A stretch of DNA of 64,000 nucleotides. It comes from Escherichia phage EcS1. The notes beneath the pieces are model-generated. The model did no database searches, was not told the DNA's origin, and worked only from the letters and a program-made list of their open reading frames with translations. The position numbers and the translations under genes were made by a program. Location: the sequence record NC_055721.1; one strand, given 5' to 3'. This document shows, one piece after another, positions 3,438-21,927 of this stretch (position 1 is the first letter of the stretch; each line of letters opens with the position of its first letter).

Positions 3438-4267
3438 ATGTTCGGACACTGGTATAATTCATCACTGCGTCGCTATATTGTTTTAATGGGTGATTTGTTT
3501 TCCCATGTCCAGGTAGCACGTGTCAGAGCGGATGTAGGCACTAAGTTTATTAAAGTTCCTATTACTTATGCTTCAAAAGAAAAATTTATGTCTCAACTTG
3601 GCAAATGGACTGCTATTCAAAGCGCTCAAGATAAAGCCAAGATTGAAACAGTTCTTCCACGTATGAATCTTCATTTAGTGGACTTGCAATATAACGCACA
3701 ATATAAAACAGCTACCCAAAACAGAACTGCGGCTCAATATCAAGACGGTGACCCAAGAAAATCTGTTTCACAATTCAGTCCTACTCCAGTCAAAATGATT
3801 TTTGAGTTAGGCATTTATACTCGTCACCAAGACGATATGTATCAAATCATAGAACAAATTTTGCCTTATTTCCAACCTCATTTTAATACAACAATAACAG
3901 AACTTTATACAAATGAGATTAAATTCGAGCGTGACATCAGGATTGTATTCCAATCAGCTGCAATGGACGAACAAATAGAAGGTGACCCGATGACAAGACG
4001 TCGTTTGGAATGGTCTATTATGTTCGAAGTGAATGGTTGGCTTTATCCACCAGTTGCATCAATTGAAGGCGAAATCAGAACAGTATATATTGACTTCTTT
4101 GCCAATACTAAAGAGCTTACGCCTGAAGGCATATTCGAATCAGTTGATAGTGAAGTAGTTCCTAGATATGTAGAAGAAGCCGATTGGGACGGAAAATCAG
4201 AACAAACTTATTCGCATGATATTCCTATTCCTGTTGAGCCTGCGCCACCTAGCCCGAGGACTAATAA

Positions 4268-13095: not shown

Positions 13096-14655
13096 ATGAA
13101 AAAGAACGCTCTCTTAGAAAAATGGCAGCCACTGCTGGAAAATGAAGAACTGCCAGAAATTGTTGGTGCTTCAAAACAAGCCATTATCGCTAAAATCCTG
13201 GAAAACCAGGAAAAAGACTTTACTACTTCCCCTGAATACAAAGATGAAAAAATCGCAGAAGCTTTTGGTTCGTTCCTGAGTGAAGCAGAAATTGGTGGTG
13301 ACCATGGTTATGATGCAACCAATATCGCTGCTGGTCAAACCTCTGGTGCTGTAACTCATATCGGTCCTGCTGTAATGGGTATGGTTCGTCGTTCAATCCC
13401 TAATCTGATTGCTTTCGATATCTGTGGTGTTCAGCCGATGAATAACCCTACTGGCCAGGTGTTCGCACTGCGTGCTGTGTATGGCAAAGATCCAATCGCA
13501 GCTGGCGCTAAAGAAGCATTCCACCCAATGTTCGCTCCAGATGCAATGTTCTCTGGTCAAGGTGCTGCTGAAGTATTCCCTAAAGCAACCGCTGGTAAAG
13601 TGTTAGCTGTTGGTGATATTGTAGTTCATGATTTCGAACAAACTGGTCGTGCTCATCTTCAAACTGTAGTTGCTTTCACTATTGATGCTGCTGCTACTGA
13701 TGCTGGTAAACTGGACGTAGAAATCACTAAGCAATTAGAAGCTGGTAAACTGGCTGAAATCGCTGAAGGTATGGCTACCTCTATCGCCGAATTGCAAGAA
13801 GGCTTTAACGGTTCTACTGATAATGCTTGGAACGAAATGGGCTTCCGTATCGATAAACAAGTTATCGAAGCTAAATCTCGTCAGCTTAAAGCTGCTTACT
13901 CTATCGAACTGGCTCAAGACTTACGTGCTGTTCACGGTATGGACGCTGATGCCGAACTGAGTGGTATTCTGGCTACAGAAATTATGCTGGAAATTAACCG
14001 TGAAGTAATCGACTGGATTAACTATTCAGCACAGGTTGGTAAAACCGGTATGACTCAAACTGTTGGTTCTAAAGCCGGTGTGTTTGACTTCCAAGACCCA
14101 ATCGATACGCGTGGTGCTCGTTGGGCTGGTGAAAGCTTTAAAGCTCTTCTGTTCCAAATCGATAAAGAATCAGCTGAAATCGCACGTCAAACCGGTCGTG
14201 GTGCAGGTAACTTCCTGATTGCTTCACGTAACGTTGTTAACGTACTGGCTGCTGTTGATACCAACGTATCTGTAGCTGCTCAAGGTCTGGGTCGTGGTTT
14301 CGAAACTGATACCACTAAAGCCGTATTTGCTGGTGTATTGGGTGGACGCTACCGTGTCTATATCGACCAGTATGCACGTCAAGACTACTTCACCATGGGT
14401 TATAAAGGTTCTAACGAAATGGATGCTGGTATCTACTACGCGCCATACGTTGCACTGACTCCGCTGCGTGGTTCCGATCCTAAGAACTTCCAACCAGTAA
14501 TGGGCTTCAAAACTCGTTATGGTATCGGTATTAACCCATTCGCTGACCCAGAAGCTCAGGCTCCTAAAGGTCGTGTCGTGTCTGGTATGCCTTCATTGGC
14601 TAACAGCATCGGTAAAAACGGTTACTTCCGTCGTGTGTTCGTTAAAGGTATCTAA
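13096..14655 (+). CDS. 23: Major capsid protein gp23
   Basis: 519 aa; long stretches identical to recalled T4 gp23 (e.g. IGGDHGY, NIAAGQTSGAVT, GPAVMGMVRR, YYAPYVALTPLRGSDPKNFQPVMGFKTRYGIGINPFA). Confidence 0.98.
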   Translation: MKKNALLEKWQPLLENEELPEIVGASKQAIIAKILENQEKDFTTSPEYKDEKIAEAFGSFLSEAEIGGDHGYDATNIAAGQTSGAVTHIGPAVMGMVRRSIPNLIAFDICGVQPMNNPTGQVFALRAVYGKDPIAAGAKEAFHPMFAPDAMFSGQGAAEVFPKATAGKVLAVGDIVVHDFEQTGRAHLQTVVAFTIDAAATDAGKLDVEITKQLEAGKLAEIAEGMATSIAELQEGFNGSTDNAWNEMGFRIDKQVIEAKSRQLKAAYSIELAQDLRAVHGMDADAELSGILATEIMLEINREVIDWINYSAQVGKTGMTQTVGSKAGVFDFQDPIDTRGARWAGESFKALLFQIDKESAEIARQTGRGAGNFLIASRNVVNVLAAVDTNVSVAAQGLGRGFETDTTKAVFAGVLGGRYRVYIDQYARQDYFTMGYKGSNEMDAGIYYAPYVALTPLRGSDPKNFQPVMGFKTRYGIGINPFADPEAQAPKGRVVSGMPSLANSIGKNGYFRRVFVKGI

Positions 14656-14755: not shown

Positions 14756-16036
14756 ATGAGCAAAATTCATACCCTGTTGCGCGAATCTACAACTACGAGC
14801 AGTTCGTCTCTTGGGCGTCCCGACCTCGTTGCATTGACTCGCGCCACGACTAAATTAATCTATAGCGATATTGTGGCAGAACAACGTACATCTCAACCAG
14901 TTGCGGCATTATATGGTATCAAATATTTGAACCCTAATGATGATATGACCTTTACTTCTGGTGCTACTTATGCTGGCCCATTCGGTACTAAAGAACGCAA
15001 AACGGTAGTTGAAATTACTGATGCAAATAAAGCAACATTTACAACAGGCAAATACTTCAAATATAAAGATATCGTTTATAAAGTATTAGGTGTTTCTGTT
15101 ACCGATGGGACTACTGAAACCGATCTTGATTTTATGATTCAAGAATCAATGGTTCTTTTGAATATTCGAAGTGTGCACGAAGCAGCTGAAACGGCTAAAT
15201 TTGAAGCCTCTGATGTAGAAGTATCTGAAGCATCATTTGAAGTGTCTAAATGGAATGCTCCAGTTAAATCACGTAAATTAAAAACAGCTTTGACTGTTGA
15301 ATTGATGCAAGACCTTGAAGCTAATGGATTCAATTCGCCTAATTTCGTAGAAGATCTTTTGGCTACCGAAATGGCTGATGAAATTAATAAAGACATTATC
15401 CAGTCATTGATTACAGTTTCTAGTCGTTATAAAGTTACTGGTGAAACAGATAAAGGCATTCTTGATTTAACTACTGTTGAAGACCCGTTAGCTGGACGTA
15501 AATTGTATCGTATGGTATGTGAAATCAATTCGCATATTCAAAGAACAACTTCTTATTCAGGAACTTATGTCGTTGCATCAACTCGTGTCGCTGCTGTATT
15601 AGCTTCTTCAGGTTGGTTAAAACATAAGCCAGAAGATGACCAATATCTGTCACCGGCTGCATATGGATTCTTGGCTAATGGTCTGCCACTTTATTGTGAT
15701 GCAAGTTCACCATTAGATTATGTTATTGTTGGTGTTAAAGAGGACTTTGGTGAACTAGAAATGGTTGGCTCATTGTTCTATGCGCCGTATACTGAAGGAT
15801 TGGATTTAGAAGACCCTGAACACGTAGGTGCGTTTAAGGTAATTGTTGACCCGGAATCTTTGCAACCATCTGTTGCATTACTGGTTAGATATGCTCTGTC
15901 AGCGAACCCTTATACAGTAGCTAAAAACGAGGCTGATGCTCGTATTATTGATGCTACTGATATGGATAAAATGGCAGGTCAAAGTGATATGTCTGTATTG
16001 CTTGGTGTTAAGTTACCGAAGTTAATTGCAGGCTAA
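14756..16036 (+). CDS. 24: Capsid vertex protein gp24
   Basis: 426 aa, gp23 paralog position and size. Confidence 0.9.
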   Translation: MSKIHTLLRESTTTSSSSLGRPDLVALTRATTKLIYSDIVAEQRTSQPVAALYGIKYLNPNDDMTFTSGATYAGPFGTKERKTVVEITDANKATFTTGKYFKYKDIVYKVLGVSVTDGTTETDLDFMIQESMVLLNIRSVHEAAETAKFEASDVEVSEASFEVSKWNAPVKSRKLKTALTVELMQDLEANGFNSPNFVEDLLATEMADEINKDIIQSLITVSSRYKVTGETDKGILDLTTVEDPLAGRKLYRMVCEINSHIQRTTSYSGTYVVASTRVAAVLASSGWLKHKPEDDQYLSPAAYGFLANGLPLYCDASSPLDYVIVGVKEDFGELEMVGSLFYAPYTEGLDLEDPEHVGAFKVIVDPESLQPSVALLVRYALSANPYTVAKNEADARIIDATDMDKMAGQSDMSVLLGVKLPKLIAG

Positions 16037-16073: not shown

Positions 16074-17078
16074 TTATACTACTTCATGCCATTTTTCACG
16101 AATGGTAGCCATTACTATTTGCTGAAGTTCTTTCTTAACTAAGTTCGGTTGGTCAGCATCGATAAGTACGATACCTTCACGTTCTGCTTCGACAAAAATA
16201 TCTTGCATAGTAAGACCCATTACCTTACCGAAGTCTTTAGCTGTCACTTCACCAATATGACTCAAAACGTTGGACACACGGTTCCAGGTACTATATTCAG
16301 CTAATGTAGACAGTGCAACCTTATCTTGGTCGCTTAATACCGCAGCCGGCTTAATAGGCTTATCAGATTTAGCCTTTTCACTGAACTTAGAGTTCTTACA
16401 TTTAATAGCAACACGATTACCGTTAGCTAAAATCACTGGATAACAAGGCTTCAGAACATAGCCTTCTGCGATATTCTTTTCACCATGAGGCAAGAAACCA
16501 AAGTGAGCTATGTTAGCATATTCAATACCGTTGGCCACAGCAAGTTCATTATAATGATTAACTACAGAATCAAAGTCATTAACTAACTGAGATAATTCTT
16601 CGAAAGAGCCACGAGCTATTAGTGGTGCTACTTTAAAACCAAAGGTACAGCACATACGTTCAACCATGAAATCATCAGCATAAGTGCCTTCTTGGTCGTG
16701 TTCTGACTTAATTAAGATATCGAATACGTAGAAGTCTTTCTCACCGTAATCCATACCTTTTTGAATTCCACCACCTGCGAACTCGCCGAAAATTTGATAC
16801 GAAGATGCTGTACCACAGATAGAGTCTTGAAGAAACTTAATAGACTTATCATATTTCTTCATAATAATTTCATGAGCAAAGAAACTTTCACCGGGCAGAA
16901 TAGGTCCTGTCCGCTTACACGGAGTGACTGCGTCACGACTAATAATTAGAGAGAAGTTTGTACCATGAATCTTTTCACGTGCTACCCATACGCCAGTGTC
17001 ATTACCAGAGAAACGAATCTTCTCGATGAACTTACCGTTGTAATGATTCTCTAAAGAGGAGTACTTTTCAAATGTCAT
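16074..17078 (-). CDS. rnlB: RNA ligase 2
   Basis: 334 aa; [37 protein letters not shown] match recalled T4 Rnl2. Confidence 0.92.
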
Positions 17079-17119
17079 AAATCACCATATTAAAATAATT
17101 AATCTTCTAGCCCCAGGCT

Positions 17120-17127
17120 TATAAATA
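17120..17127 (+). promoter_or_regulatory. Orphan TATAAATA box in loop of AGGC/GCCT hairpin, no adjacent + strand gene
   Basis: Perfect box; nearest + gene (hoc) is 660 nt downstream. Confidence 0.3.
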
Positions 17128-17176
17128 GGCCTCTGAACCATTATATCGAATATATCACATATATTCTTAAAGCATA

Positions 17177-17485
17177 TTAGAACTTAATTTCAACCCATTC
17201 GCCATCACGTTGACAACTACGCCATTTGGCTTCAATACCTTCATCTTCGAGCCATTTAAGGAAAACGTCTTTATATTTCGAGAATTTTGAAACATTCTTC
17301 AAAGGATAATAATGGAATTCTCTGCGTCCTTGTTTAGCAACATCAGTGATACACTTTTCAAAGTCTTTTTTAAGTTCAGTGTATTCTGAACTTGAAATAG
17401 AATCGGCAATAGCACCATAGTAAGTAGCTAATTTAGTAGTACGTGTCATTTTAGGCCTCGGTTTTGGATAAGGTAGCGTGTGCAT
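17177..17485 (-). CDS. Hypothetical protein (24.2-like position); true start may be internal (MTRTTKL)
   Basis: ORF only; synteny. Confidence 0.45.
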   Translation of the reverse strand: MHTLPYPKPRPKMTRTTKLATYYGAIADSISSSEYTELKKDFEKCITDVAKQGRREFHYYPLKNVSKFSKYKDVFLKWLEDEGIEAKWRSCQRDGEWVEIKF

Positions 17486-17726
17486 TGATATTTTTAACCA
17501 ATTTTTTGTGATGCAAAGTTGATGTAGTCATTCGCTTGCGATAAACAACTTTCTCGCGTGATTTGAATTTGATTTTAAGCTTTTCACCTTCAGCCCAATG
17601 TTTAGCAGCTTCTCGAGCTGAAATACCTAATTTTTCAGCTACATCACCAAATGTCATTTTTAAATCTTCAATCATTGTATAAATTTGAACAGCAATATTC
17701 ATAGTCACCTCATGTTTGTAGGTCAA
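17451..17726 (-). CDS. Hypothetical small protein with possible helix-turn-helix (24.3-like position)
   Basis: ORF; segment FGDVAEKLGISAREAAKHW resembles an HTH. Confidence 0.4.
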   Translation of the reverse strand: MTYKHEVTMNIAVQIYTMIEDLKMTFGDVAEKLGISAREAAKHWAEGEKLKIKFKSREKVVYRKRMTTSTLHHKKLVKNINAHATLSKTEA

Positions 17727-17786
17727 TTATACTCAATATTCTTATAGCATAAATACACTATATTTCATAATAAGAGGACACATCTT

Positions 17787-19124
17787 ATGGCTATTCCTTC
17801 AGTAACGATTACCCCAGTTAATGCCTCACCACAACTTGGTCAGACATTAACTATCAATTCAGTAGTTGAATTCGACCCAACAGATGTTTATACATCGTAT
17901 AAATGGGAACTTTCTGGCGCAGATACAGGCGTTACTACTGCAACATACACTAAAGCCAATATCACAAGTGCTGATGCTGGTTCTTACGTATTAAAAGTTA
18001 TGCATGGTGTTGATGCAGGTTCTGCAACTGAAACCGCTTCAAGTCCTGCCGTTATTACTACTTTACCGGCAACAACTGTTTCTATTGTTTCAACCACTAC
18101 TGACATTTATGTCGGTGATACATTAACTATTACTGCTACCCCAACTGGTGTTCCTTCTGGCGCAACAGTAGGCGCATATGAATGGTCTAAAGGTGGTACT
18201 GTAGTTTCGGGCCAAACTACTTCTACATTGACTAAAACAGTTGCGGCTGGCGATGCCGGTTCTTATACTGCTAAAGTATCTTATACTGTAACAGGCCAAG
18301 CACCAATTAAAACTGCTGCATCTAATGCTATCTCTGTTACTGTTGGACCTGCATTAGCATTTGCTACTAACCTTAATGCAACAGCTTCTGTATCAACAGG
18401 CCAAGCTCTTACCCTAACTGTAGCAGCATCCGGTGGTAAATCTCCATATACATATCAATGGAAGAAAGGAAGTGCTAACATAGGAACTAATTTAAATACA
18501 TTTATAGTTCCTTCTGCGGATTCAACAACTGCAGGAACTTATACTGTTGAAGTGACAGATGCTGCAAGTCATAAAATCACATCAGCTTCTTGTGTTGTTA
18601 CAGTGGTGCCTGCTTTATCTTTGAGCACCGATTTGTCTGCGACTAAATCAGTTGTTTCAGGTAAAACTCTTACTCTAACTATTGTTGCAGCTAATGGCAA
18701 AACGCCTTATACATATCAATGGAAAAGAGCTGGCGTTGAAATCCCAAGTGAAACAGCTGCTACATTTACTAAATCTGCGTCACCAGCGGACGCAGGTACG
18801 TATACATGTGAAGTGACAGATGATAATAACGATAAAATCACATCTAATACATGTGTTGTAACTGTTAGTTTATTGCCTGATTTAGAAGTTCTTTGGACTG
18901 TACATCCTATCCCATGGCGAGATACAAGTTTCACTCCGTTAGGTTATTGGGTATTAGATGAAATCTTACTTCAAAAAGCTGATGGCAAAGACTGGAAAAC
19001 TGATTACGCTACTTATCATTACACAGAAGAAGTTCAAACTATTTTAGAAGCATTTAATGCTATGGGTGAAGTTGAAATTCAAGACTCGCGTAATGGGTAT
19101 ATCCACAAAATGAGTTTAATTTAA
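17787..19124 (+). CDS. hoc: Hoc, highly immunogenic outer capsid protein (four Ig-like domains plus C-terminal capsid-binding domain)
   Basis: 445 aa; repeated Ig-like units with YxWxxxG and AGxYTCEVTD motifs; C-terminal HPIPWRDTSF...GKDWKTD...QDSRNGYIHK matches recalled T4 Hoc C-terminus. Confidence 0.85.
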   Translation: MAIPSVTITPVNASPQLGQTLTINSVVEFDPTDVYTSYKWELSGADTGVTTATYTKANITSADAGSYVLKVMHGVDAGSATETASSPAVITTLPATTVSIVSTTTDIYVGDTLTITATPTGVPSGATVGAYEWSKGGTVVSGQTTSTLTKTVAAGDAGSYTAKVSYTVTGQAPIKTAASNAISVTVGPALAFATNLNATASVSTGQALTLTVAASGGKSPYTYQWKKGSANIGTNLNTFIVPSADSTTAGTYTVEVTDAASHKITSASCVVTVVPALSLSTDLSATKSVVSGKTLTLTIVAANGKTPYTYQWKRAGVEIPSETAATFTKSASPADAGTYTCEVTDDNNDKITSNTCVVTVSLLPDLEVLWTVHPIPWRDTSFTPLGYWVLDEILLQKADGKDWKTDYATYHYTEEVQTILEAFNAMGEVEIQDSRNGYIHKMSLI

Positions 19125-19133
19125 GAAGGTTTT

Positions 19134-19631
19134 ATGGCTGATAAATGGACAACAGTTAACCCAATCCCGTGGCGAGATACAAGTTTTACGTATCTCCCTT
19201 ACTGGCTTTACGATATTATAGTTAAAGCCTTTAAAGACGGTAATGATTGGCGTGATTATTCTGAAACGAAATACAAATTAGAATTTGATACCTTGATTCA
19301 AGCATTCGAAGACTACGATGACATTTCAGTTATTGAATCACGTAATGGTAATCTACATGATTTATCTAATTTTACACCAGTAACAATCACAGCTAAATCA
19401 CCTGTGCCAGCTTTTAAAGTTGGTGACCCAGATTTAGTTATCAGCGCATTGTTCACAATTGATCCAGTTAAATTAGGGCAGCATGCAGTGTTATCTGTTG
19501 ATGCTTCTGGACATGCTGTATTAAGCAGCAGTGCTGTACCATCCGTTAAGGCTGTTTCGGCTGGGACAACTGTGGTGACATGTACTATTGGTGATGTATC
19601 AGAAACAATTAGTTTAGTTGTAACTGTATAG
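19134..19631 (+). CDS. Hoc-anchor-domain protein with C-terminal Big_2-like Ig domain (second putative capsid decoration protein)
   Basis: N-terminal 75 aa (NPIPWRDTSFTYLPYW...DGNDWRDY...ESRNGNLH) paralogous to the Hoc C-terminal domain of the preceding ORF; C-terminal VDASGHAVLSSS..VKAVSAGTTVVTCTIGDVSETISLVVTV has Big_2 pattern. Confidence 0.75.
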   Translation: MADKWTTVNPIPWRDTSFTYLPYWLYDIIVKAFKDGNDWRDYSETKYKLEFDTLIQAFEDYDDISVIESRNGNLHDLSNFTPVTITAKSPVPAFKVGDPDLVISALFTIDPVKLGQHAVLSVDASGHAVLSSSAVPSVKAVSAGTTVVTCTIGDVSETISLVVTV

Positions 19632-19632
19632 C

Positions 19633-19666
19633 AAAAAGGGAGAGCTTACGCTCTCCCTTTTTTATT
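19633..19666. terminator. Bidirectional terminator between convergent 19134..19631 and 19662..20375
   Basis: AAAAA-GGGAGAGC-TTAC-GCTCTCCC-TTTTTT. Confidence 0.8.
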
Positions 19667-20375
19667 TTATAACTTGGAAACTTGAATTACGCGTTTCACG
19701 AACGCGAACTAACCCATCACGCTTAATGTAATATAAAAGACTTAATATCGTATCAATACCGTAGTGGTGTGGGAACGAATGCGGATTCACTTTCCATTCT
19801 GGGTTCTTTGTAATCCATTCATAAATCCACCAAGGTAGAGTTACATAAGTTAATCCACGTCCAATTTGAGCTAATGTAGGACTGAAATCTTTTGGAAGCT
19901 CAAATACCTTTTCAGATTCAATAATCTGTTCAATAGCTTTTTCAAGAGCAGGGAGATCTTCTTCAGTCATAGGCTTGGTTGGGATAGTTTCAATGCCTTC
20001 GCTATGAATAACTGTAACAACTTCACCAATTGGAGCTTGAATAGAGTTAATGATTTTAGCTTCAACGGAAGGAGCTCCGATAGAATCGATCAAAAGTGTC
20101 TTGGCTTCATCTTTAGCTTCATCTTTAAAAACAGAAGTGCCAGTGAGTTCATCATCAGCTTGAATCAAATCAGAGATACTCATTCCGCCAATATCTTCAG
20201 GCATTGGTTCAGAAGCAAGTTTTTTCATTTCTTCTGACAAGTCAGCAACCATGTTATCAAATGACTTAGTTTTCTTTAAAGTTATGTTGAAAGTAAGAGC
20301 GTAGTCGGCCAGTTTTTCTTTGGCTTCTTTTTTGTCTAGCTCACGAAGTTCGTCAATATAAATTTTATCAATCAT
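19662..20375 (-). CDS. Hypothetical acidic protein in the position occupied by inh in T4 (identity not confirmed)
   Basis: 237 aa ORF; synteny between hoc and uvsW; sequence not recognised. Confidence 0.5.
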   Translation of the reverse strand: MIDKIYIDELRELDKKEAKEKLADYALTFNITLKKTKSFDNMVADLSEEMKKLASEPMPEDIGGMSISDLIQADDELTGTSVFKDEAKDEAKTLLIDSIGAPSVEAKIINSIQAPIGEVVTVIHSEGIETIPTKPMTEEDLPALEKAIEQIIESEKVFELPKDFSPTLAQIGRGLTYVTLPWWIYEWITKNPEWKVNPHSFPHHYGIDTILSLLYYIKRDGLVRVRETRNSSFQVIK

Positions 20376-20427: not shown

Positions 20428-21927
20428 GTGGATATCAATGTACATTTTGAAGATTATAGTCATGTTCTGATTGAATGCTCAGAGAGCATCTTCTTTGAAC
20501 TAAGAGACTACTTTTCATTTGAAGCTGATGGCTTCAAATTTAACCCACAATACAAATATGGTCATTGGGATGGACGAATTCGCCTTTTAGGTTATGACCG
20601 TCGTTTGCCATTTGGACTAGTTGGATTCATCGATAAATTTGCTTCCAATATGGATTACAAAGTAGCAATTGACCCTAAAATCAATGAGAAAGAAGATATC
20701 GCTCGTGTTGATTTTGATAATTGGTTGAATGCTCTTGAAATTTATTCTGGGTCTACCAAGATTGAGCCACATTGGTACCAGAAGGACGCCGTGTACACTG
20801 GCCTGATGAATCGTAGAAACATTCTTAATTTACCTACTTCCGCAGGTAAGTCATTGATTCAGGCGCTCCTGGCACGTTATTATGTTGAGAACTATGTTGG
20901 TAAGATTTTAATCATTGTTCCAACAACAGCTTTAGTTGATCAAATGATTGACGATTTTGTTGATTATCGTTTGTTCAATCGTAAGAATATGCTAGGCATT
21001 CGTGGTGGTACAGCTCGTGATTCTGACGCAGAGATTTATGTTGCTACTTGGCAAACTGCTGTTAAACAACCTAAAGAATGGTTCAGTCAGTTTGGTATGA
21101 TGATGAACGACGAATGTCATCTTGCTACAGGCAAAAGTATTTCATCTATTATTGCAGGCTTAAATAATTGTGCTTTCAAATATGGTCTTTCTGGTTCTTT
21201 AAAAGATGGTAAAGCCAATTTGATGCAATATGTAGGTATGTTTGGTAATGTTTTTAAGCCTGTGTCAACATCACAGCTTATGGAAGATGGTCAAGTAACT
21301 GATTTGAAAATCAACTCTATTTTCTTACGTTACCCTGATGAATTCTGTGCTCAAATGAAAGGCAAAGATTATCAGACAGAAATTAAGGTTATCCAAAAAG
21401 CTAAGAAACGAAATCTTTGGGTCTCTAAGCTTGCTGTTAAATTAGCTAAAAAAGAAGAGAACGTTTTCTTGATGTTCAAGAATGCCGAACATGGTAAAGA
21501 ACTTTTCCAAATGGTTAAAGACCTTGAGCATAAAGAAGTATTCTTCGTAAATGGTGAAGTTGATACTGATACTCGTAATGCATTGAAAGTAATGGCTGAA
21601 AATGGCAAGGGTATTATTGTTGTCGCTTCATACGGCGTATTCTCTACCGGCATCAGTGTTAAAAACTTACATCATATTATTTTTGCACACCCGGTAAAAT
21701 CAAAGATCATTGTGCTTCAGACTATTGGTCGTGTACTTCGTAAACACGTAAGTAAAACAACGGCTCAAGTCTGGGACATTATAGATGATATGGGTGTTAA
21801 ACCTAAGTCTGCTAATGCTAAAAAGAAATATGTTCATTTGAATTATGCATTAAAACATGCTCTTGAACGTATTCAACGTTATGCAGAAGAAAAATTCAAT
21901 TATGTAATGAAACAGGTAGACTTATGA
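20428..21927 (+). CDS. uvsW: UvsW recombination/repair helicase (GTG start)
   Basis: 499 aa; ILNLPTSAGKS Walker A, MMNDECHLA DExH box, GRVLRKH; near-identical to recalled T4 UvsW. Confidence 0.95.
   Translation: MDINVHFEDYSHVLIECSESIFFELRDYFSFEADGFKFNPQYKYGHWDGRIRLLGYDRRLPFGLVGFIDKFASNMDYKVAIDPKINEKEDIARVDFDNWLNALEIYSGSTKIEPHWYQKDAVYTGLMNRRNILNLPTSAGKSLIQALLARYYVENYVGKILIIVPTTALVDQMIDDFVDYRLFNRKNMLGIRGGTARDSDAEIYVATWQTAVKQPKEWFSQFGMMMNDECHLATGKSISSIIAGLNNCAFKYGLSGSLKDGKANLMQYVGMFGNVFKPVSTSQLMEDGQVTDLKINSIFLRYPDEFCAQMKGKDYQTEIKVIQKAKKRNLWVSKLAVKLAKKEENVFLMFKNAEHGKELFQMVKDLEHKEVFFVNGEVDTDTRNALKVMAENGKGIIVVASYGVFSTGISVKNLHHIIFAHPVKSKIIVLQTIGRVLRKHVSKTTAQVWDIIDDMGVKPKSANAKKKYVHLNYALKHALERIQRYAEEKFNYVMKQVDL

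What the first reader, a model, noticed from the sequence alone, without database searches (positions are those of the whole stretch)
17787..19631. Hoc is followed by a second protein with the Hoc capsid-anchor domain at its N-terminus fused to a Big_2 Ig domain
The Hoc ORF (17787..19124) ends with the capsid-binding domain (HPIPWRDTSF...GKDWKTD...QDSRNGYIHK). The next ORF (19134..19631) begins with a clear paralog of that domain (NPIPWRDTSFTYLPYW...DGNDWRDY...ESRNGNLH) and ends with a Big_2-like Ig fold. The domain order is inverted relative to Hoc (anchor then Ig, rather than Ig then anchor). Two different decoration proteins competing for or sharing the same capsid site would be unusual.
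Basis: seen in the sequence. Interest (0 to 1): 0.65.

Follow-up and report, generated by a model that had tools for sequence, protein, structure and literature searches.

The report
Second, short Hoc-type capsid decoration protein
Right after its long Hoc head-fibre gene, this T4-like phage (Escherichia phage EcS1) encodes a short second protein with the same capsid-docking domain at the opposite end, which is real but belongs to a gene family that is already annotated and already noted in the literature.

Summary
Hoc (17787..19124, 445 aa) and the next ORF (19134..19631, 165 aa) share a 73-residue segment at 47% identity (E 5e-22). A model of the ORF2 N-terminal domain matches only the solved T4 Hoc capsid-binding domain (8t1x_X, TM 0.70). 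The C-terminal half is a confident Ig-like sandwich of the Big_2 kind by fold, but it misses Pfam's Big_2 threshold.

It is not unusual. The window is phage EcS1, whose record already names ORF2 "Hoc-like head decoration". ORF2 belongs to the RB43/RB16-type "Hoc" (PHROGs 14282 and 11091), which is the only Hoc of the genus Pseudotevenvirus. The same long-plus-short pair occurs in Klebsiella phage Metamorpho, KP15-like phages and metagenomic contigs. All N-terminally anchored proteins form one clade (98% bootstrap). That clade includes the PG7-type lipase protein, for which Fokine et al. 2023 noted the N-terminal capsid-binding domain.

Most likely both proteins are made from one late transcript. 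They would then compete for the centre of gp23 hexamers, whose Hoc-contact segment is 18/19 identical to T4's, giving a mosaic coat. Virion presence and competition are inferred, not shown.

The parts
17748..17755 (+). Late-promoter-like box CATAAATA, one mismatch to the T4 late consensus TATAAATA, 31 nt upstream of the hoc start codon
   Evidence: Read. The exact TATAAATA is enriched in the window (16 found, 5.8 expected), but there is none between hoc and ORF2. The promoter role is inferred.
17787..19124 (+). hoc: canonical long Hoc of 445 aa, with four Ig-like domains (about residues 1-362) followed by a C-terminal capsid anchor
   Evidence: Ig_3 3e-23, Ig_2 6e-22, PKD; phrog_1149, 2e-64. 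Domains 3 and 4 are 52% identical to each other. pI 4.8.
18879..19121 (+). Type-A anchor: the Hoc C-terminal capsid-binding domain (residues 365-445)
   Evidence: It is 79-81% identical to the C-terminal anchors of Metamorpho gp090 and KP15_195, and the type-A clade has 100% bootstrap.
19123..19129 (+). Shine-Dalgarno-like AAGAAGG for ORF2. It overlaps the hoc TAA stop (19122-19124) and lies 4 nt before the ATG.
   Evidence: Read. The 9-nt gap suggests co-transcription and possibly translational coupling, which is inferred.
19134..19631 (+). ORF2 ('HocB'): short RB43-type Hoc-like decoration protein, 165 aa, 18 kDa, pI 4.55
   Evidence: phrog_14282 1.6e-62; phrog_11091 1.1e-53; 100% identical to EcS1 'Hoc-like head decoration'.
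19134..19379 (+). Type-B anchor: the N-terminal capsid-binding domain (residues 1-82)
   Evidence: R14, W24, D27 and E68-S-R-N-G72 are conserved. These correspond to T4 Hoc R300, W310, D313 and E355-G359, which one search identifies as capsid-contact or loop-holding residues.
19380..19628 (+). Linker plus C-terminal Ig-like (Big_2-class) display domain (residues 83-165)
   Evidence: AF2 pLDDT about 94. Foldseek neighbours are Big_2-type Ig domains. Pfam is sub-threshold for ORF2 itself but above threshold in the homologue P0014.
19633..19662 (.). Bidirectional intrinsic terminator shared by the hoc-ORF2 operon and the convergent inh gene
   Evidence: a 13-bp stem with 6 GC pairs and T-runs on both strands.
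19662..20375 (-). inh: minor head protein, inhibitor of the prohead protease. Its C-terminal domain (residues about 172-235, window 19671..19862) is a remote homologue of the Hoc anchor.
   Evidence: phrog_1051, 5e-80. Searches support the anchor homology.
14065..14121 (+). Predicted docking site in the major capsid protein gp23 (gene at 13096..14655): residues 324-342, equivalent to T4 gp23 G326-R344
   Evidence: This segment is 18/19 identical to T4, with D336 and R344 kept. It is 17/19 identical in GAP161, which has only a type-B Hoc. The site was defined in T4 by Fokine 2023.

Best explanation
ORF2 is a second Hoc-type head decoration protein of the RB43/RB16 kind. Its N-terminal 80 residues fold like the T4 Hoc capsid-binding domain, and a short linker carries one Big_2-like Ig domain away from the shell. 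It is transcribed late together with the long four-Ig Hoc, from a late-type promoter upstream of hoc to the terminator after ORF2, and it is translated from its own ribosome-binding site. After head expansion, both proteins dock at the centre of gp23 hexamers. One T4 Hoc anchor touches all six subunits of a hexamer, so each hexamer can take only one of the two proteins. The capsid would therefore be a mosaic of long fibres and short knobs, with the ratio set by relative synthesis and affinity. Shown here: the homology, the fold, the conserved contact residues, the conserved target segment in gp23, the operon layout, and long-term retention of both paralogues in several phage genera. Inferred: presence in the virion, use of the same site, mutual exclusion, and any adhesive role of the Ig domain.
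For: Anchor homology is supported by BLASTP E 5e-22, by phmmer against T4 Hoc in the PDB at E 3e-8, and by an AF2 model whose only significant PDB match is the capsomer-bound T4 Hoc domain 8t1x_X (TM 0.70). The model places R14 between strands 1 and 2, Y23-W24 at the start of helix 1, and ESRNG between strands 3 and 4, which matches the T4 description. R14, W24, D27 and E68-G72 are at least 90% conserved across 42 diverse anchors. The gp23 contact segment is 18/19 identical to T4's in EcS1, and 17/19 in GAP161, which has only the type-B protein. For the operon, there is a 9-nt gap, a separate Shine-Dalgarno sequence, no internal late promoter and one terminator. The two anchors are old paralogues, each conserved. 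Type A is 79-81% identical and type B 61-75% identical across EcS1, Metamorpho and KP15, while A versus B is 42-47%. The clades have 100% and 98% bootstrap support. The same adjacent pair is found in Metamorpho, KP15-like phages and two metagenomic contigs. The type-B form is the only Hoc in Pseudotevenvirus, so it must work as a decoration protein by itself. Both proteins are acidic, like T4 Hoc. Each T4 Hoc binds all six subunits of a capsomer.
Against: I found no proteomic or cryo-EM evidence for ORF2, or for any type-B protein, in virions. ORF2 has N9 where T4 Hoc has H295, and most homologues have His at that position. The T4 contact residues Y293 and W309 are T and Y in ORF2. The two anchors differ at more than half of their positions, so different affinities or different capsomer preferences are possible. 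In the full-length model, residues 1-18 had pLDDT below 50 with the shallow alignment. The geometry by which a C-terminal extension leaves the anchor was not examined.
Confidence: 0.65

Rival explanations
1. Both proteins are on the capsid but do not compete. [quoted passage not shown]
For: Type A and type B anchors are only 42-47% identical, while each type is well conserved across genera. Long-term co-retention of the pair is easier to explain if the two are not redundant. In T4, vertex-proximal hexamers bind Hoc differently from other hexamers.
Against: The core contact residues and the central ESRNG loop are conserved in both types. In Pseudotevenvirus the type-B protein is the only Hoc, and gp23 keeps the same contact segment. 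The equivalent gp24 segment is not conserved with gp23 (see the alignment).
Confidence: 0.15
2. ORF2 is not a stable virion component. It might be a soluble or transient factor that caps or regulates Hoc sites during assembly, or a decaying duplicate with no function in EcS1.
For: No virion proteomics is available. In KP15-like phages the type-B gene is reduced to a 91-aa anchor with a Pro/Asp-rich tail, which shows that the display domain is dispensable there.
Against: The ORF is intact and has a good ribosome-binding site. It has full-length orthologues at 56-67% identity in at least four lineages, with 40 invariant positions. Its C-terminal domain is confidently folded. The same architecture is the only Hoc in many phages.
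Confidence: 0.1
3. hoc and ORF2 are really one gene, either split by an annotation or sequencing error or joined by stop-codon readthrough. That would give a 614-aa protein with two tandem anchors.
For: The two ORFs are in the same reading frame, separated only by TAA plus 9 nt. The same is true in Metamorpho.
Against: The pair is out of frame in KP15 and in contigs L005 and L008. Two of five in frame is what chance predicts. ORF2 has its own Shine-Dalgarno sequence and ATG, and all type-B homologues start at the same M-A-(T/D)-(E)-K-W. Type-B proteins also exist alone. From general knowledge, TAA is an efficient terminator.
Confidence: 0.02

Closest known systems
T4 Hoc (highly immunogenic outer capsid protein; PDB 8T1X, 5VF3)
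   Same: The capsid-binding domain is homologous in sequence and predicted fold. R300, W310, D313 and the ESRNG loop are conserved. Both proteins are acidic. The target segment in gp23 is nearly identical.
   Different: In T4 the anchor is C-terminal, after three Ig-like domains. In ORF2 it is N-terminal, before one Ig-like domain of a different (Big_2-like) class. T4 has one such gene and EcS1 has two.
RB43/RB16-type 'Hoc large outer capsid protein' (Pseudotevenvirus, e.g. GAP161_221; PHROGs 11091 and 14282)
   Same: Same architecture and length (about 165 aa) and 55-57% identity over the full length. Both lie in the same type-B anchor clade.
   Different: In those phages it is the only Hoc and sits downstream of inh. 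In EcS1 it accompanies a long canonical Hoc, and the two-gene cassette converges on inh.
Klebsiella phage Metamorpho gp090/gp089, and the KP15_195/KP15_196 pair
   Same: A canonical Hoc is immediately followed, 9-10 nt later, by a type-B anchor protein. The two are orthologous to the EcS1 pair, with type A at 79-81% and type B at 74-75% identity.
   Different: The KP15 type-A Hoc has one Ig domain, and its type-B protein has lost the Ig domain (91 aa). The Metamorpho pair is essentially the same as in EcS1.
Enterobacter phage PG7-type 511-aa Hoc-like protein (Fokine et al. 2023, PMC10385173, section 3.6)
   Same: It is the published example of a capsid-binding domain at the N-terminus, in a phage that also has a canonical Hoc. 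A homologue, L013:3492-5024, falls in the same clade as ORF2 (98% bootstrap).
   Different: Its cargo is a GDSL lipase/acylhydrolase (Pfam 5e-18), not an Ig domain. The gene lies at a distant locus near dexA and gene 39 rather than next to hoc.
Phage T5 decoration protein pb10 (PMC5292684)
   Same: It binds at the centre of major-capsid-protein hexamers (abstract seen). From my own knowledge of that paper, it has an N-terminal capsid-binding domain followed by a C-terminal Ig-like domain, which is the same order as ORF2.
   Different: No sequence or fold relationship to the Hoc anchor was detected here; pb10 did not appear among the fold hits. The resemblance is analogy, not membership.

Membership tests
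Hoc capsid-binding (anchor) domain family | [quoted passage not shown] | tested here: met
   phmmer against the PDB matches 5vf3_Z residues 294-361 at E 3e-8. BLASTP against the EcS1 Hoc anchor gives E 5e-22. The anchor HMM scores 109 bits.
Hoc capsid-binding (anchor) domain family | Fold of two strands, two helices and two strands, with the ESRNG loop between strands 3 and 4 | tested here: met
   The AF2 model has pLDDT 90.6 with elements b9-11, b16-21, a23-34, a48-61, b65-68 and b74-76. Its only significant PDB match is 8t1x_X (TM 0.70, rmsd 2.1 A).
Hoc capsid-binding (anchor) domain family | Conservation of capsid-contact and loop-holding residues (T4 Y293, H295, R300, W309, W310, D313, E355-G359) | tested here: met
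   R14, W24, D27 and E68-S-R-N-G72 are conserved. Three positions differ: H295 is N9, Y293 is T, and W309 is Y23 (residue roles).
Hoc capsid-binding (anchor) domain family | Physical binding to the centre of expanded gp23 hexamers, one copy per hexamer | not testable with these tools
   Only the conservation of the gp23 contact segment could be checked: 18/19 identical to T4.
Canonical Hoc architecture (string of Ig-like domains followed by a C-terminal anchor) | Anchor at the C-terminus, preceded by Ig-like domains | tested here: not met
   ORF2 has the anchor at residues 1-82 and the Ig-like domain after it. The 445-aa Hoc upstream does meet this feature. Among 73 cluster representatives at 50% identity, 62 have a C-terminal anchor, 5 have an N-terminal anchor and 6 are anchor-only or short.
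Type-B, N-terminally anchored Hoc-like proteins (RB43-type Hoc, PG7-type lipase protein) | Anchor sequence falls in the N-terminal-anchor clade, and the protein matches the PHROG families built on that architecture over its full length | tested here: met
   phrog_14282 at 1.6e-62 (residues 3-163) and phrog_11091 at 1.1e-53. The N-anchor clade has 98% support in 200 NJ bootstraps.
Pfam Big_2 (PF02368) bacterial Ig-like domain | Score above the Pfam gathering threshold of 22.8 bits | tested here: inconclusive
   ORF2 itself has no Big_2 hit, only PF22359 Big-like at 16-17 bits. Homologues score 17.8 bits (P0006), 16.9 bits (P0013) and 30.6 bits (P0014). The fold neighbours are Big_2-class domains.
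Virion decoration protein | Detected in purified virions | not testable with these tools
   No proteomic or structural report was found for EcS1 or for any type-B protein.

The most novel reading that the evidence does not exclude
The Hoc anchor may be a general docking module for the gp23 capsomer that is shared by three neighbouring head genes: hoc, ORF2 and inh. The C-terminal domain of Inh, the little-studied 'inhibitor of prohead protease', is a remote homologue of the anchor in T4 and in all 120 Inh proteins tested. On this reading, the capsomer centre is a contested port used by different proteins. Inh might use it during prohead stages, and then long and short Hoc forms would use it after expansion. 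Capsids would then be programmable mosaics. I found no mention of the Inh-Hoc relationship in the papers I could search.
Probability: 0.2. Interest if true: 0.6.

Novelty: new member of a known kind. Interest (0 to 1): 0.3.

Why it matters
Hoc is the main handle for phage display and vaccine work on T4 heads, and it is the proposed mucus-adherence device of gut phages. A natural anchor that works from the N-terminus, together with a phage that makes long and short forms at once, would show how phages tune their surface. It would also offer a ready-made way to display cargo with a free C-terminus. That idea is already in the literature for PG7 and is implied by the RB43-type Hoc, so EcS1 mainly adds another example. 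What this analysis adds is that the long and short forms are an old, co-inherited pair found in several genera. It also shows that all N-terminal anchors share one origin despite carrying varied cargo: one or two Big_2-like domains, a Hoc-type Ig domain, a lipase, or nothing. The Inh link, if it holds, bears on T4 itself.

Tried and rejected
A direct Pfam search for Big_2 in ORF2, whole or as the C-terminal half alone, gave only a sub-threshold 'Big-like' hit.

Foldseek with the two-domain model did not return Hoc. The anchor's first 18 residues were poorly modelled with the 12-sequence alignment. This was solved by modelling the anchor alone with 42 diverse anchors.

Several literature searches for virion proteomics or cryo-EM of RB43-type, KP15-type or EcS1 Hoc proteins were dominated by 'post hoc' noise and gave nothing usable. 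The one proteome found, for the ValerieMcCarty phages, is from ordinary Jiaodaviruses with a single Hoc.

Sathaliyawala 2010 and Fokine 2011 are not held in the library.

The readthrough or fusion idea, raised by the shared frame, was rejected after checking frames in five loci.

Megablast found no close genome in the phage collection, so EcS1 itself is not in it. The best match was about 80% identity over rnlB to Serratia phage X20. Identity of the window came from the protein look-up and from IMG/VR locus L014.

P0026, a 512-aa repeat protein in the representative search, is a spurious hit and was excluded.
Full report
WHAT IS THERE

The window comes from Escherichia phage EcS1. ORF2 is 100% identical to the GenBank protein 'Hoc-like head decoration [Escherichia phage EcS1]' on a 175,437-bp contig, and IMG/VR locus L014 is the same contig. 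A paper places EcS1 in the genus Kagamiyamavirus.

The local gene order is as follows:
- gp23 (13096..14655, +)
- gp24 (14756..16036, +)
- rnlB (16074..17078, -)
- two small ORFs on the - strand
- hoc (17787..19124, +)
- ORF2 (19134..19631, +)
- inh (19662..20375, -)
- uvsW (20428..21927, +)

Both ORFs named in the finding exist exactly as described.

THE SHARED DOMAIN IS REAL

- BLASTP aligns Hoc 371-443 with ORF2 7-78 at 47% identity with one gap, E 5e-22.
- ORF2 residues 8-74 also match T4 Hoc residues 294-361 in the PDB at E 3e-8.
- An AlphaFold2 model of ORF2 residues 1-84, built on 42 diverse anchor sequences, has mean pLDDT 90.6. Its topology is strand-strand-helix-helix-strand-strand.
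[quoted passage not shown] Every other hit has E > 0.9.
- Fokine et al. 2023 identify residues important for capsid binding or for holding the central loop: R300, W310, D313 and E355-S-R-N-G359. These are conserved in ORF2 as R14, W24, D27 and E68-G72, and they are at least 90% conserved across the 42 anchors.
- Three contact positions differ. H295 is N9, Y293 is T, and W309 is Y.

THE C-TERMINAL HALF

With a 12-sequence family alignment, residues 83-165 are modelled at pLDDT about 94 as a beta sandwich. The nearest solved structures are Big_2-class Ig domains. They include the lambda gpV C-terminal domain (2l04, 8iyd), Big_2-CBM56 (7quz) and Leptospira Lig domains, along with phage decoration and capsid Ig domains (prob about 1.0, E 4e-3 to 1e-2).

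Pfam does not call Big_2 in ORF2 itself. Homologues give sub-threshold hits, and one, P0014, gives an above-threshold Big_2 hit. 'Big_2-like Ig fold' is therefore a fair description, but membership in the Pfam family is not established.

IT IS A KNOWN KIND OF GENE

ORF2 matches phrog_14282 (1.6e-62) and phrog_11091 (1.1e-53), both labelled 'Hoc-like head decoration', over its whole length.

A tblastn search of 50,697 phage records found 66 records with a full-length match. Almost all are RB16/RB43/GAP161/CfP1/Lw1-type phages (Pseudotevenvirus). There the 167-aa protein is annotated as Hoc and is the only anchor-bearing gene apart from inh.

The adjacent long-plus-short pair seen in EcS1 recurs in several places:
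- Klebsiella phage Metamorpho has a 467-aa and a 162-aa protein, both annotated as Hoc-like.
- Two metagenomic Slopekvirus-like contigs have 467 + 164 aa and 354 + 162 aa.
- KP15-like phages have a reduced form, a one-Ig Hoc of 177 aa plus a 91-aa anchor-only protein.

In all, 1351 anchor-coding places were found in 1198 records, so a second anchor gene is common. Fokine et al. 2023 state that Muldoon and PG7 each encode two Hoc-like proteins, and that the PG7 511-aa protein carries the capsid-binding domain at its N-terminus with a GDSL lipase behind it.

EVOLUTIONARY STRUCTURE (NEW HERE, BUT INCREMENTAL)

The C-terminal anchors of EcS1 Hoc, Metamorpho gp090 and KP15_195 are 79-81% identical to one another. 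The N-terminal anchors of EcS1 ORF2, Metamorpho gp089, KP15_196 and GAP161_221 are 61-75% identical to one another. Between the two groups, identity is 42-47%.

In a neighbour-joining tree of 86 anchors with 200 bootstraps, the first group forms a clade in 100% of replicates. All N-terminally placed anchors, including a PG7-type lipase protein (L013), form one clade in 98%.

So the permuted architecture arose once and then acquired varied cargo:
- one Big_2-like module (EcS1, RB16)
- two modules (P0006, P0007, CfP1-like)
- a Hoc-type Ig_3 domain (P0012)
- a GDSL lipase
- only a Pro/Asp-rich tail (KP15)

These cases are documented. In a search of 1.84 billion cluster representatives, 74 clusters matched the anchor. 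After dropping one spurious hit, 62 are C-terminal, 5 are N-terminal and 6 are anchor-only or short.

HOW IT MOST LIKELY WORKS

hoc is preceded by CATAAATA, one mismatch from the T4 late-promoter box, and by a Shine-Dalgarno sequence. ORF2 starts 9 nt after the hoc stop and has its own AAGAAGG. A strong bidirectional terminator follows at 19633-19662, and no late box lies between the genes. The two proteins are therefore probably made together, late in infection.

EcS1 gp23 is 84% identical to T4 gp23. The segment that contacts Hoc (T4 G326-R344) is 18/19 identical, with D336 and R344 kept. It is also 17/19 identical in GAP161, which has only the type-B protein.

One T4 Hoc anchor sits on the capsomer axis and touches all six subunits. 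Two anchors therefore cannot share a hexamer. The most economical reading is competition for the same sites, giving a mosaic of long four-Ig fibres and short single-Ig knobs. Both proteins are acidic, with pI 4.8 and 4.55.

The homology, the fold, the conserved residues, the conserved target and the operon layout are shown. Virion incorporation, site identity and exclusion are inferred. I put this explanation at 0.65.

RIVALS

- Partitioning to different capsomer classes (0.15). This fits the divergence between the anchor types and their long co-retention.
- A non-virion or decaying role (0.10). This is argued against by intact orthologues in several genera and by the type-B protein being the sole Hoc elsewhere.
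- A single gene joined by readthrough (0.02). The shared reading frame in EcS1 and Metamorpho is not seen in KP15, L005 or L008, which fits chance.

SIDE LEAD: INH

A precomputed Pfam hit of 'Phage_Inh_C' on a type-B protein led me to compare Inh with the anchor.

- A profile of 82 anchors against 120 Inh C-terminal segments gives hhalign probability 95.5% (E 1.5e-8, 60 columns). The alignment matches the Arg, the WW, the DWK and the E-(S/T)-R-N positions.
- Twenty column-shuffled controls reached at most 3.4%, and a reversed control reached 0.1%.
- The anchor HMM hits all 120 Inh proteins (best E 5e-9), T4 Inh residues 162-222, and Inh as the third-best ORF in the whole window.
- No Inh structure is solved.
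- Three T4 head reviews and the Hoc paper do not mention Inh at all, and no other paper that I searched notes the relationship.

VERDICT

ORF2 is a new member of a known kind, and interest is modest at 0.3.

Noticed in passing
window 19662..20375 (- strand), especially 19671..19862: The C-terminal domain of Inh (prohead protease inhibitor, minor head protein) is a remote homologue of the Hoc capsid-binding domain. hhalign gives 95.5% probability against at most 3.4% in shuffled controls. The anchor HMM hits 120 of 120 Inh proteins and T4 Inh residues 162-222. Three adjacent genes therefore carry versions of one module. I found no mention of this in the papers searched.
   Followed up: partly
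window 17787..19631: hoc and ORF2 are in the same reading frame, separated only by TAA plus 9 nt, and the same holds in Klebsiella phage Metamorpho (L001 2588/4001). The pair is out of frame in KP15, L005 and L008, so this is probably chance rather than readthrough.
   Followed up: yes
window 16074..20375, compared with T4 (L011): The hoc-ORF2 cassette is on the same strand as gene 24 and converges on inh. In T4, hoc is on the opposite strand to gene 24 (L011), and the 226-aa inh ORF I recovered next to it lies on the hoc strand. Metamorpho, classified as a Jiaodavirus whose relatives have a T4-type hoc, shares the EcS1 arrangement, and its anchors are close to those of EcS1 and KP15. This suggests the two-gene cassette moves between T4-like genera.
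   Followed up: partly
window 18345..18869 (Hoc residues 187-361): Ig domains 3 and 4 of EcS1 Hoc are 52% identical to each other, against 24-34% for the other domain pairs. This indicates a fairly recent internal domain duplication.
   Followed up: yes
P0012 (184 aa, metagenomic): A type-B N-terminal anchor is fused to a Hoc-type Ig_3 domain ('SPYTYVW...AGTYKCVVTD') instead of a Big_2-like domain. This shows that display domains are swapped between the two Hoc lineages.
   Followed up: partly
L018 (RB43, AY967407/NC_007023) 3992..4177: In this RB43 record the type-B hoc is broken into a 61-aa ORF plus a second piece. Two other RB43 records (HE858210, HE981739) match ORF2 over 99% of its length in a single tblastn piece, with no such break. 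This is likely a sequencing error or a strain-specific frameshift.
   Followed up: no
window 17451..17726 (- strand): A small ORF upstream of hoc, in the position of T4 genes 24.2/24.3, contains a helix-turn-helix-looking stretch (FGDVAEKLGISAREAAKHW). It was not analysed.
   Followed up: no
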